Below, one piece after another: positions 10,496 through 12,274 of a stretch of 64,000 bases of DNA. The notes beneath the pieces are model-generated. The model was not told where the DNA came from, searched no databases, and worked only from the letters and a program-made list of their open reading frames with translations. Numbering within the stretch: the first letter of the stretch is position 1; each line of letters begins with the position of its first letter. The stretch lies in the NCBI RefSeq assembly GCF_009914755.1, contig NC_060931.1; one strand, written 5' to 3'. The DNA comes from the human T2T-CHM13v2.0 reference genome, Homo sapiens. Made by a program: the position numbers and the translations under genes.

Positions 10496-10695
10496 GTGAG
10501 TAGACAAACAACAAAGTTATCTATTTTAAAATACTCTAGAACTCATGTAATTAATCCTATCATTAGAATTATTAGGTTTTACTTGTTTTTCCATTTTTAT
10601 CAAAACGTATTCCTATATCATTATTTTGAATGGAGGCATGGTCATTTGGAAAGTGACAAAATCATAAGAATCGACTGCATTAGAAGACCACTTTA

Positions 10696-11870
10696 TTTTT
10701 TTCATTATTTTTTGTCGAAACATTCTCTATATTTAATTTCAATTTTATAACAGATTACAGGAAGATGCTTAAGAAACAAGTACAACATTTGTTTCAGTAT
10801 GTCTTTAAATGAAAGACTTTTAAGTATGTAAGCAACTATATAATAAAAGGTTTCCAAACGCAGCCTGTAAGAAATCAGGCAAATTTTACTATAAGCAATA
10901 AACCATTCCGAGCTTTCCAGACAGTGTACCAGTAGCTGTACCAGTGGGCAATAACCTTTAACCAAACAAAAACAAACAAACAAACAAACAAAAGCACTTT
11001 GCAATTTGTTGCTGCAAAATGGGGAGAAAAAAAGAGTATATAAACTTGATGGAATCACAACTGTCAATATAATTTAAGGGAAAATAAAGTCGATAAGGTT
11101 GATGGTGTCTATTGTTTGGAAAGTCGAATTCGGCTATTTGCTTGGGGCTCTAGAGACCACACCACTGAATAAACAAAACTCTGCAGAGTCTAGCTATCCG
11201 CCAACAGGGGGTGCCGTCCAAATTCATGGCAAATAAAGGGCATTTGGTGCTCACCATTCACAACAGGCGGGCATTTATGTGGATGAAGTACAATTTCTTC
11301 AGCAAGCTCAGCAAAAACTCTTAAGGGGCAAATATGAACTCTGCATTTTAAGAAAAATAGAAAACGGAAACACAAAATCCTAAAAAGTATATGAAGGCTC
11401 TGCATTAGCACACTGGCATCAAACCACACATCCACAGCACATCCTAATTCTATGGGAAACAATCCTTGCTTATCGGAGGTGCATATCTAAATTCAATAGC
11501 TTACCAATATATTCTTGGGAGTAGGCCAAAAGGAAACAGAAAACCCACATTAAAAAAAGAAGTTTCTTTTCCTAAACATTTTCCTGAAGCTGAAATTGAA
11601 GTGGAGAGGAAGTCAGTTGTCCTCGTCGAAATCGTAGTCCTCCTCATCCTCCCCAACCTGGGACACCGGGGTCTTCACCCTGGAGATGCTGTACTGAGAC
11701 CTGTTGGAGCTTGTGGCCAGCATTTCATCCGCACCATTGGTCAGGTCACTGGCAGAGAGCCTCGTGCCGTTAGACGTGGAACCTGCCGTTGTGATGAACA
11801 CGCCTGCAACAATTGTCTGCGCCATTTCTGTCACGTGTGGCTCCAGCGCCTTTGGGACCAGACTTATGGC
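10696..11870 (-). pseudogene. Processed pseudogene fragment of TFDP1 (DP-1): C-terminal 85 codons, 3'UTR and poly(A) remnant
   Basis: Minus-strand translation [85 protein letters not shown] matches the recalled TFDP1 C-terminus; ATTAAA (plus-strand tttaat 10732-10737); degenerate A-tail (T-rich 10696-10713). Confidence 0.88.
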
Positions 11871-12014
11871 TTTTTTTTTTTTTAAGTTCTGGGATACATG
11901 TGCTGAATGTGCAGGATTGTTACATAGGTATACATGTGCCATGGTGCTTTGCTGCACCTATCAAACCATCATCTAGGTTTTAAGCCCCGTATGCCTTAAT
12001 GCATTAGATATTTG
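11871..12014 (-). mobile_element. L1PA (older, PA7-PA10-like) 3'-terminal ~130 bp with A13 tail, fused to the TFDP1 copy
   Basis: T13 at 11871-11883, then aagttctgggatacatgtg...taggttttaagcccc...gcattag, the reverse complement of an L1PA 3' end. Confidence 0.88.
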
Positions 12015-12274
12015 AGAAGACCACTTTAAGTGTATCGTTAAATAAATAGAGCTTAACTTGGAATGTCGTCTTCTTGTGGCTGGCACTGAGGCAAAGAAAT
12101 GTAATCATCTAGGAATTAGACGAATTGCATTTTGAGTTTTGGCAGGATCTGGCAGTAATTTTAAAGATAAGCTTTAAAAAGTTTTGTATTAAGCTCAATA
12201 TTAGCATTTAATCCATTTATTTGTTAAAATCTAATATTGTATTCTTGTCTTAAACAGTGACTTTGTTTTTGTAG

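What the first reader, a model, noticed from the sequence alone, without database searches (positions are those of the whole stretch)
10682..12028. Single-TSD chimeric retro-insertion in CD36 intron 5: L1 3' end + A13 + TFDP1 retrocopy + poly(A)
Seen: an identical 14-mer AGAAGACCACTTTA at 10682-10695 and 12015-12028 encloses the whole insert. On the minus strand it reads L1PA 3' end (12014-11884), A13 (11883-11871), TFDP1-like C-terminal codons and 3'UTR, ATTAAA, then an A-rich remnant. The empty site reads CTT/AAAG, an L1 endonuclease-type site. The internal junction has no TSD of its own. Inference: both parts arrived in one event, either (a) L1 3' transduction from a donor L1 inside another TFDP1 processed copy, reading through to the TFDP1 poly(A) signal, or (b) an RT template switch from TFDP1 mRNA to L1 RNA. 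The L1 end (GAACTTAAA) sits where TFDP1 encodes ...EDLKM-ARS, so junction microhomology or an EN site there is plausible (TFDP1 recalled from memory). A further 9-nt match (TGCATTAGA, 10677-10685 vs 12000-12008) links the target site and the L1 5' junction.
Basis: partly seen in the sequence, partly recalled or inferred. Interest (0 to 1): 0.8.

Follow-up and report, generated by a model that had tools for sequence, protein, structure and literature searches.

The report
L1 fragment plus TFDP1 retrocopy
An intron of the human CD36 gene holds a short tail piece of an L1 jumping element joined to a dead, intron-less copy of the end of the TFDP1 gene, both inside one pair of target-site repeats; it is an ordinary kind of old retro-insertion, and this genome alone cannot show whether it formed in one step or two.

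Summary
An exact 14-mer (10682-10695, 12015-12028) encloses, on the minus strand, a 131-nt L1 3' end, a 13-A run, a 5'-truncated TFDP1 retrocopy, ATTAAA and an 18-nt A-rich tail. The TFDP1 part spans three exons of the chr13 gene with both introns missing.

The single-event reading is only partly supported. "No TSD at the internal junction" cannot exclude a second insertion, because the L1 end plus its A-run is a perfect L1 endonuclease site (TTTT/AA on the opposite strand). A retrocopy landing there would have an all-A, invisible TSD. Sense Alu starts are about 3-fold enriched just behind L1 ends of this type genome-wide.

3' transduction is disfavoured. No locus in this T2T genome has the junction. 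All four retrocopies holding the upstream TFDP1 sequence run through it uninterrupted. The CD36 copy has no sister retrocopy, and its nearest relative is the gene.

Decay of the two parts is compatible with one age, but the test is weak.

My odds:
- Nested insertion into the poly(A) tail of a slightly earlier L1 fragment: 0.45.
- Reverse-transcriptase template switch from TFDP1 mRNA to L1 RNA: 0.32.
- Transduction: 0.12.

Primate orthologues would decide. Interest is low.

The parts
12015..12028 (-). Upstream copy of the 14-bp target-site duplication (TAAAGTGGTCTTCT on the minus strand)
   Evidence: Exact repeat.
11884..12014 (-). 5'-truncated L1 3' end, 131 nt, ending GAACTT before the A-run. 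It carries a private 8-nt tandem duplication at about 11991-11998.
   Evidence: 88-95% identity to L1 3' ends across the genome. Alignment to 31 genomic copies.
11871..11883 (-). Pure 13-A run between the L1 and TFDP1 parts. The first 3 A's are the L1 terminal CTTAAA. With the preceding TT it forms TT|AAAA, which is TTTT/AA on the other strand.
   Evidence: Sequence. Junction alignment.
11613..11870 (-). TFDP1 C-terminal coding fragment, 85 codons plus TGA with no start codon. Exon-exon joins lie at 11828|11827 and 11749|11748.
   Evidence: Translation. Dp-1 hit. Exon mapping to chr13.
10714..11612 (-). TFDP1 3'UTR, ending at a proximal poly(A) site
   Evidence: Alignment to the gene and 5 retrocopies. 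The gene and 4 retrocopies continue past this point.
10732..10737 (-). ATTAAA polyadenylation signal, 18 nt before the A-rich tail
   Evidence: Sequence.
10696..10713 (-). A-rich tail remnant (AAAAAATAATGAAAAAAA)
   Evidence: Sequence.
10682..10695 (-). Downstream copy of the 14-bp target-site duplication

Best explanation
This is two successive L1-mediated insertions that now look like one unit.

Step 1: a severely 5'-truncated L1 (131 nt plus poly(A)) inserted antisense into CD36 intron 5 by target-primed reverse transcription. This made the 14-bp TSD.

Step 2: while that poly(A) tail was still long and pure, the L1 endonuclease nicked the opposite strand at the junction of the L1 end and its tail (TTTT/AAG). 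The T-run primed reverse transcription of a TFDP1 mRNA that had been polyadenylated at its proximal ATTAAA site. Copying stopped 1,157 nt in, inside the third-last exon. The second nick fell about 13 nt downstream, still inside the tail.

The TSD of this second insertion therefore consists only of A's. One copy is the 13-A run now seen upstream of TFDP1. The other copy merged with the TFDP1 tail.

Shown: the anatomy, the splicing, the endonuclease-type sites, the absence of a donor locus, and a genome-wide excess of sense insertions behind such L1 tails.

Inferred: the order of events and that there were two.
For: 1. The internal junction is a consensus endonuclease target. The minus strand reads GAACTT|AAAAAAAAAAAAA, which is TTTT/AA on the other strand. 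The published consensus is 5'-TTTT/AA-3', or YYYY/RR (Hancks & Kazazian, PMC4859970, passages).

2. The A-run is 13 nt, close to the 15-16 nt spacing between the two nicks. [quoted passage not shown]

3. Calibration in this genome. The L1 terminal 13-mer occurs 9,811 times. A 19-nt Alu 5'-start motif follows it in sense orientation within 0-30 nt in 46 cases and within 31-61 nt in 42 cases. About 15 are expected per window from the motif's 310,907 genomic occurrences. Reversed-pattern controls gave 0. In roughly a quarter of the 46 cases, by eye, the Alu abuts a pure A-run directly.

4. The TFDP1 part is a normal processed retrocopy of the mRNA. Two introns are missing. It ends about 18 nt after ATTAAA. 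The tree is star-like and the parent gene is the nearest relative (ML distance 0.1285).

5. Decay of the two parts is compatible with close ages.
Against: Nothing seen here requires two events. A single 14-bp TSD around both parts is equally what a one-step chimera gives.

The L1 part is not measurably older than the TFDP1 part, and if anything looks younger:
- The L1 part differs from the majority of 31 relatives at 4-7 of 123 sites, about 7-9 if two likely CpG decays are added.
- Given the TFDP1 part's rates, 8.5-11 differences are expected. The TFDP1 part has 77 of 1,107 sites private and 112 of 1,144 differing from the majority.
- The two TSD copies are 14/14 identical.

The two-step reading therefore needs a short interval between events. 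The Alu calibration cannot tell nested insertions from one-step chimeras either. The 31-61 nt window is as enriched as the 0-30 nt window, so part of the excess may reflect A-rich surroundings rather than the tail itself.
Confidence: 0.45

Rival explanations
1. One-step chimera by template switching. The L1 reverse transcriptase, primed at the CD36 target on the poly(A) of a TFDP1 mRNA, copied 1,157 nt and left that template at the G of GCC. It continued on the poly(A) tail of an L1 RNA, copied the tail and 131 nt of L1, and then stopped. The outer 14-bp TSD is the only one. A close variant is capture of a second short L1 cDNA at the same break.
For: - One exact TSD encloses both parts, which share an orientation.
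- Decay of the two parts is compatible with one age.
- The TFDP1 part descends directly from the gene's mRNA and not from another retrocopy.
- No donor locus exists.
- De novo insertions made of two transcripts do occur. Nine were found in clones that acquired 99 L1 and 235 pseudogene insertions, and same-orientation cases were ascribed to template switching or RNA ligation (Mendez-Dorantes et al., PMC11702581, section 7 read).
- An SVA-CKS1B unit was explained this way (PMC12593883, passages).
- L1 end and TFDP1 share 10 of 12 bases at the break. Only 2 of 489 positions in the TFDP1 sequence reach that score.
Against: - Catalogued chimeras have a full-length 5' part (criterion i in Gogvadze et al., PMC2104539, passages). 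Here the 5' part is 131 nt of a roughly 6-kb element (length recalled).
- An A-run lies between the parts. In the SVA-CKS1B case it was the absence of a poly(A) between the parts that argued for a switch.
- The shared motif is not used cleanly. The TG of AAAATGGCC is missing and 10 extra A's are present, so homology-guided switching does not give the observed product without a later change.
- Genome catalogues of mRNA/L1 chimeras are small. Seventeen were found in hg38 for sequences 5' of L1 (Law & Burns, passages). Neither TFDP1 nor CD36 appears in that paper's 4 held supplementary files.
Confidence: 0.32
2. L1 3' transduction. A full-length L1 sat in sense orientation inside another TFDP1 processed retrocopy. 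Its transcript read through into the TFDP1 sequence and was polyadenylated at ATTAAA. A heavily 5'-truncated copy of that transcript then inserted into CD36.
For: - The anatomy is the textbook one: two A-stretches, the second after a downstream poly(A) signal, with all of it inside one TSD (PMC4859970, passages).
- This L1 copy has no AATAAA of its own, because it goes straight from CTTAAA into A's.
- TFDP1 has a perfect endonuclease site (CCTT|AAAATGG) 2 nt from the break.
- A mild and non-robust excess of decay in the TFDP1 part over the L1 part plus TSD would fit an already decayed donor. Poisson P ranges from 0.003 to 0.18 depending on how sites are counted.
Against: - No locus in the T2T genome holds the junction. 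Only the window itself covers the junction-spanning query (40 of 1,498 candidates were scored, and TFDP1-like ones ranked at the top).
- A search with the 400 nt of TFDP1 upstream of the break scored all 9 of 9 candidates. The four retrocopies (chrX:36.56M, chr15, chr1, chrX:131.54M) run uninterrupted through the site.
- No extant copy can be the empty allele of a donor. The chrX:131.54M copy ends at an internal AATAAA and lacks the last ~380 nt. The chr4 copy starts at query position 592. The chrX:36.56M, chr15 and chr1 copies have much shorter branches (0.028-0.046) than the CD36 copy (0.096) and share no branch with it.
- If the donor L1 had used the perfect site, TG would follow the A-run, and it does not.
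Confidence: 0.12
3. The 14-mer is a chance repeat, or the L1 inserted later next to an older TFDP1 retrocopy, so the shared TSD is an illusion.
For: Exact 9-mers repeat by chance several times in this 1.9-kb stretch (5 exact 9-nt pairs).
Against: - The 14-mer is unique to these two places in 64 kb. 0.05 matches are expected, and 0 of 100 shuffles gave 2 or more.
- It sits exactly at the L1 5' end and at the end of the A-rich tail.
- A later L1 insertion at the TFDP1 5' border would need its own TSD. The bases before the L1 (GGTCTTCT) and after the A-run (GCCATAAG) do not match.
Confidence: 0.02

Closest known systems
Sense-orientation insertion of L1-mobilised elements at A-tracts of pre-existing retroelements (Levy et al. 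2010, PMC2836564)
   Same: Same orientation as the host element. A consensus nick site on the opposite strand at the 5' edge of the A-tract. An A-tract of about the inter-nick length upstream of the newcomer. No visible TSD for the newcomer.
   Different: The published hotspot is the Alu A-rich linker with Alu as the newcomer. Here the host is an L1 poly(A) tail and the newcomer is an mRNA retrocopy. The order of events is not shown for this locus.
Chimeric retrogenes made by template switching during L1 reverse transcription (Buzdin/Gogvadze type, PMC2104539; two-transcript de novo insertions, PMC11702581)
   Same: Two unrelated transcripts lie head to tail in one orientation within one pair of 10-20 bp direct repeats. 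The 3' part is 5'-truncated at an arbitrary point.
   Different: The 5' part is not a full-length RNA copy but a 131-nt L1 tail piece. L1 is the 5' partner rather than the usual 3' partner. An A-run separates the parts.
L1 3' transduction (Moran 1999, Goodier 2000 and Pickeral 2000 as cited in PMC4859970)
   Same: L1 3' end, first A-stretch, non-L1 sequence ending at a downstream poly(A) signal, second A-stretch, one TSD.
   Different: The carried sequence is spliced mRNA, so the source would have to be an L1 inside a retrocopy. No such source, filled or empty, exists in this genome.
SVA-CKS1B processed-pseudogene unit (PMC12593883)
   Same: A retroelement followed by a 5'-truncated spliced gene copy inside one TSD.
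   Different: That unit has no poly(A) between the parts, has sibling copies that prove it moved as a unit, and is human-specific. This one has an A-run, has no siblings, and is old.

Membership tests
L1-mediated (target-primed) retro-insertion | Target-site duplication of about 4-20 bp flanking the insert | tested here: met
   Exact 14-bp repeat at both ends.
L1-mediated (target-primed) retro-insertion | Endonuclease-type target (YYYY/RR, consensus TTTT/AA) at the 3' end of the insert | tested here: met
   The plus strand reads CACTTTA|AGTG. This is CTTT/AA if the T of the repeat is counted as a tail base, or TTTA/AG if it is not. Consensus taken from PMC4859970.
L1-mediated (target-primed) retro-insertion | A-rich tail at the 3' end, with 5' truncation | tested here: met
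   18-nt A-rich tail at 10696-10713. The L1 is cut to 131 nt and TFDP1 is cut inside an exon.
Processed (retro)pseudogene of TFDP1 | Introns absent at exon-exon joins of the parent gene | tested here: met
   Three chr13 exons are contiguous in the insert. Introns of about 1.1 kb and 2.2 kb are absent.
Processed (retro)pseudogene of TFDP1 | Ends at a poly(A) signal of the parent transcript | tested here: met
   ATTAAA lies 18 nt before the tail. It is a proximal site that the other 4 retrocopies reaching this point read through.
Processed (retro)pseudogene of TFDP1 | Parent is TFDP1 rather than a paralogue | tested here: met
   The smallest ML distance is to the chr13 gene (0.1285). PDB hit to Dp-1. 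The chr3 intron-containing paralogue matches the upstream TFDP1 query at only 75-86%.
L1 3' transduction | Two A-stretches, the second after a downstream poly(A) signal | tested here: met
   A13 at 11871-11883, and a tail after ATTAAA.
L1 3' transduction | The carried sequence is the genomic 3' flank of a source L1, traceable to a source locus | tested here: not met
   No locus has the junction, and no TFDP1 copy is interrupted there. No extant retrocopy qualifies as the empty source allele. Only this one haploid assembly was searched.
L1 3' transduction | The carried sequence begins with the source element's 3' TSD | not testable with these tools
   This needs the source locus.
Template-switch chimeric retrogene (criteria in PMC2104539) | The 5' part is a full-length copy of a cellular RNA | tested here: not met
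   The 5' part is the last 131 nt of an L1.
Template-switch chimeric retrogene (criteria in PMC2104539) | The 3' part is 5'-truncated at an arbitrary site, in the same orientation, inside one pair of direct repeats | tested here: met
   TFDP1 is cut mid-exon, 43 nt before an exon end. Orientation and TSD.
Template-switch chimeric retrogene (criteria in PMC2104539) | Both parts arrived at the same time | tested here: inconclusive
   Decay is 4-7 of 123 (L1) against 77 of 1,107 to 112 of 1,144 (TFDP1). Fisher P ranges from 0.013 to 0.71 depending on counting. Orthologues were not available.
Nested insertion at an A-tract of an older element (PMC2836564) | Consensus nick site on the opposite strand at the 5' edge of the A-tract, with the newcomer in sense orientation | tested here: met
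   GAACTT|A13 equals TTTT/AAG on the other strand. Both parts are on the minus strand.
Nested insertion at an A-tract of an older element (PMC2836564) | The A-tract upstream of the newcomer is about the inter-nick distance (15-16 nt) | tested here: inconclusive
   The run is 13 nt. Tails of other copies of this L1 type range from about 7 to 24 A's, so this length is not specific.
Nested insertion at an A-tract of an older element (PMC2836564) | The host element is present without the newcomer in some lineage | not testable with these tools
   No primate genomes are held.

The most novel reading that the evidence does not exclude
This is a genuine one-step bipartite retrocopy in the reverse order of the classical chimeras. 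The L1 reverse transcriptase, working in trans on TFDP1 mRNA, jumped onto the poly(A) tail of an L1 RNA and aborted again after 131 nt. If so, switches onto poly(A) tails leave an internal A-run and mimic 3' transduction. Current catalogues require a full-length 5' partner or look only 5' of L1, so they would miss this whole class.
Probability: 0.32. Interest if true: 0.35.

Novelty: new member of a known kind. Interest (0 to 1): 0.2.

Why it matters
On its own it matters little. It is an old, fixed, non-coding compound retro-insertion, antisense in a CD36 intron, with no sign of function.

It is a useful cautionary case. An L1 tail followed by an A-run and a spliced gene copy inside one TSD fits three textbook mechanisms equally well by anatomy. 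The usual argument, that there is no internal TSD, is void when the internal junction is an A-tract.

The insert also makes up 1,333 of the 1,779 bp of this intron, counting one TSD copy. That is worth knowing for anyone designing assays or interpreting variants around CD36 exons 5-6 of NM_001001548.3.

Tried and rejected
1. Relative decay as a clock. I compared the L1 part with 31 genomic relatives. I compared the TFDP1 part with the gene and 5 retrocopies, with a correction for base composition. The result depends on how sites are counted. Two likely CpG decays in the L1 part are hidden because most old relatives decayed the same way. I do not rely on this test.

2. Junction microhomology. 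The 10-of-12 match between the L1 end and TFDP1 is reached at 2 of 489 positions. That gives a chance of roughly 2-5% of finding one within a few bases of the break. Because TG is missing, no model produces the observed junction from this match without a further change. I treat it as probably chance.

3. The 9-mer linking the target and the L1 5' region. Exact 9-mers recur by chance in this stretch (5 pairs), and the geometry fits no known 5'-joining step. It stays unexplained.

4. Splicing or RNA ligation origin. The TFDP1 part starts mid-exon, so no splice site is involved. Ligation by the U6-type route needs a cyclic-phosphate 3' end, which poly(A) tails lack (recalled, from the abstract of PMC6789731 seen in the listing).

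5. Alu calibration. It shows that sense insertions behind these L1 tails are enriched about 3-fold. It cannot separate nested from one-step events, and the control window (31-61 nt) is as enriched as the near one.

6. Earlier findings of this scan were not open to the session.

7. The Law & Burns catalogue has no occurrence of TFDP1 or CD36 in its 4 held supplementary files. That catalogue looks only at sequence 5' of L1.

8. No search was made for this locus in pseudogene nomenclature or retrocopy databases, so I do not claim it is undescribed.

Full report
**What is there.**

On the minus strand of the window, antisense to CD36, reads in order:
- a 14-bp repeat copy (12028-12015);
- 131 nt of an L1 3' end (12014-11884);
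- a pure run of 13 A (11883-11871), whose first three bases are the L1's own CTTAAA ending;
- an open frame of 85 codons plus TGA (11870-11613);
- about 900 nt of 3'UTR;
- ATTAAA (10737-10732);
- an 18-nt A-rich remnant (10713-10696);
- the second 14-bp repeat copy (10695-10682).

The 14-mer occurs only at these two places in 64 kb. With one mismatch allowed, 0.05 matches are expected, and none of 100 shuffles gave two. By the hub's exon table the insert lies between exons 5 and 6 of NM_001001548.3. With one TSD copy it accounts for 1,333 of the intron's 1,779 bp.

**Identity of the parts.**

The window's own genome could be searched (40 of 2,461 candidates scored). The right-hand 1,160 nt match six other loci:
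- the last exon of an intron-containing gene on chr13;
- retrocopies at chrX:36.56M, chr1:208.48M, chr15:77.42M, chrX:131.54M and chr4:165.63M.

The translated frame hits only transcription factor Dp-1 in the PDB (2aze_A, E 8.3e-07).

Against the chr13 gene the insert is colinear with the last 43 nt of one exon, a whole 79-nt exon, and the last exon. Canonical splice sites lie at the genomic borders, and both introns (about 1.1 kb and 2.2 kb) are absent. It is therefore a copy of spliced mRNA.

It ends about 18 nt after ATTAAA. The gene and the four retrocopies that reach this point all run on into a longer 3'UTR. The template was thus a transcript polyadenylated at a proximal site.

The left-hand 131 nt match L1 3' ends all over the genome at 88-95% identity. 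The terminal 13-mer alone occurs 9,811 times. I could not assign a subfamily.

**The internal junction.**

The four retrocopies that contain this region read ...GAAGACCTTAAAATGGCCAGAAGT... The CD36 copy reads ...CCCAGAACTTAAAAAAAAAAAAAGCCATAAGT....

The L1 end and TFDP1 share 10 of 12 bases here. Only 2 of 489 positions of the TFDP1 sequence score that high. However, the TG before GCC is missing and ten extra A's are present. No model yields this junction from that homology without a later change, so I treat the match as probably chance, at a few per cent.

**Is there a donor (transduction)?**

A 261-nt query across the junction is covered end to end only by the window's own locus. TFDP1-like hits begin at the A-run, and L1 hits stop there (40 of 1,498 candidates scored).

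A query of the 400 nt of TFDP1 just upstream of the break had all 9 of its 9 candidates scored. It matched four retrocopies that run uninterrupted through the site, the chr13 exons, and exons of a chr3 paralogue.

No extant copy can be the empty allele of a lost donor:
- the chrX:131.54M copy ends in A's after an internal AATAAA and lacks the last ~380 nt;
- the chr4 copy starts at query position 592;
- the other three have terminal branches of 0.028-0.046, against 0.096 for the CD36 copy.

The ML tree is a star, with internal branches of 0.007 or less and support of 41-68. The chr13 gene is the CD36 copy's nearest relative (0.1285).

Transduction therefore needs a donor retrocopy that has vanished. 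I give it 0.12.

**One step or two?**

That argument does not hold. GAACTT|AAAA... is TTTT/AAG on the other strand, which is the consensus L1 endonuclease site (consensus from PMC4859970). A retrocopy primed there, with the second nick about 13 nt on, duplicates only A's.

I calibrated this in the same genome. A 19-nt Alu 5'-start motif follows the L1 terminal 13-mer in sense orientation within 0-30 nt in 46 cases and within 31-61 nt in 42 cases. About 15 are expected per window from the motif's 310,907 occurrences. Reversed-pattern controls gave 0.

This is a roughly 3-fold excess. It shows that L1-mobilised elements often land just behind such tails. It cannot separate nested from one-step events, and the further window is as enriched as the near one.

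One-step two-transcript insertions are real too. Nine were found in clones that acquired 99 L1 and 235 pseudogene de novo insertions (PMC11702581, section 7). But the catalogued chimeras have a full-length 5' partner (PMC2104539), which this one lacks. In the SVA-CKS1B case it was the absence of a poly(A) between the parts that pointed to a switch (PMC12593883).

**Relative age.**

The L1 part differs from the majority of 31 genomic relatives at 4-7 of 123 aligned sites, depending on where a private 8-nt duplication is placed. Two further sites look like CpG decays that most old relatives share.

In the TFDP1 part:
- 65 of 906 sites differ where all other copies agree;
- 77 of 1,107 carry a state seen in no other copy;
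- 112 of 1,144 differ from the majority.

From the TFDP1 part's class-specific rates, the L1 part should show 8.5-11 differences and the TSD pair about 2. It shows none in the TSD pair. Fisher and Poisson P values run from 0.003 to 0.7 depending on the counting.

The parts are compatible with one age. The L1 is certainly not much older than the TFDP1 piece. The test cannot separate a one-step origin from two steps close in time.

**Verdict.**

All three are known kinds of event. Nothing suggests function: there is no start codon, about 7-10% decay, and antisense intronic placement.

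Noticed in passing
window 10696-10737, compared with L004, L002, L003, L007, L008: The CD36 copy was made from a TFDP1 transcript polyadenylated at a proximal ATTAAA site. The gene sequence and four other retrocopies read straight through this site into a longer 3'UTR. 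The chrX:131.54M copy used a third, still more proximal site after an internal AATAAA. TFDP1 retrocopies therefore record at least three poly(A) sites.
   Followed up: partly
L004 (chr13 gene, last exon), alignment columns ~763-791: The present-day chr13 gene carries a tandem duplication of about 28 nt in its 3'UTR that is absent from all six retrocopies. It is presumably a later change in the gene lineage.
   Followed up: no
window ~11991-12008 and 10676-10684: The L1 5' end has a private 8-nt tandem duplication (TAATGCAT-like unit). The same motif (TCTAATGCA on the minus strand) spans the downstream TSD border of the target. Together these make three copies of one motif near the two ends of the insert. 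It may be chance. No known joining step explains it.
   Followed up: partly
L005/L007 (chr15:77.42M) and L008 (chr4:165.63M): The chr15 TFDP1 retrocopy is split by an insertion of about 1.5 kb that contains an L1-3'-end-like stretch in the opposite orientation (74% identity). The chr4 copy is split by a 304-nt stretch that looks like an antisense Alu (identity by eye, recalled).
   Followed up: no
window 10496-12274: The compound insert plus one TSD copy makes up 1,333 of the 1,779 bp of this CD36 intron. Before the insertion(s) the intron was only about 446 bp. The insert ends 186 bp from the upstream exon and 246 bp from the downstream exon.
   Followed up: no
window 11613-11870: The 85-codon TFDP1 frame has stayed free of stop codons despite about 7-10% decay and one in-frame 12-nt gap relative to the gene. 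With no start codon and an antisense intronic position, this is most likely chance.
   Followed up: no
L016 (chr4:154.68M): One of the L1 relatives has its short A-tail followed at once by an Alu-like stretch in the opposite orientation. This is another example of how crowded L1 tails are.
   Followed up: no
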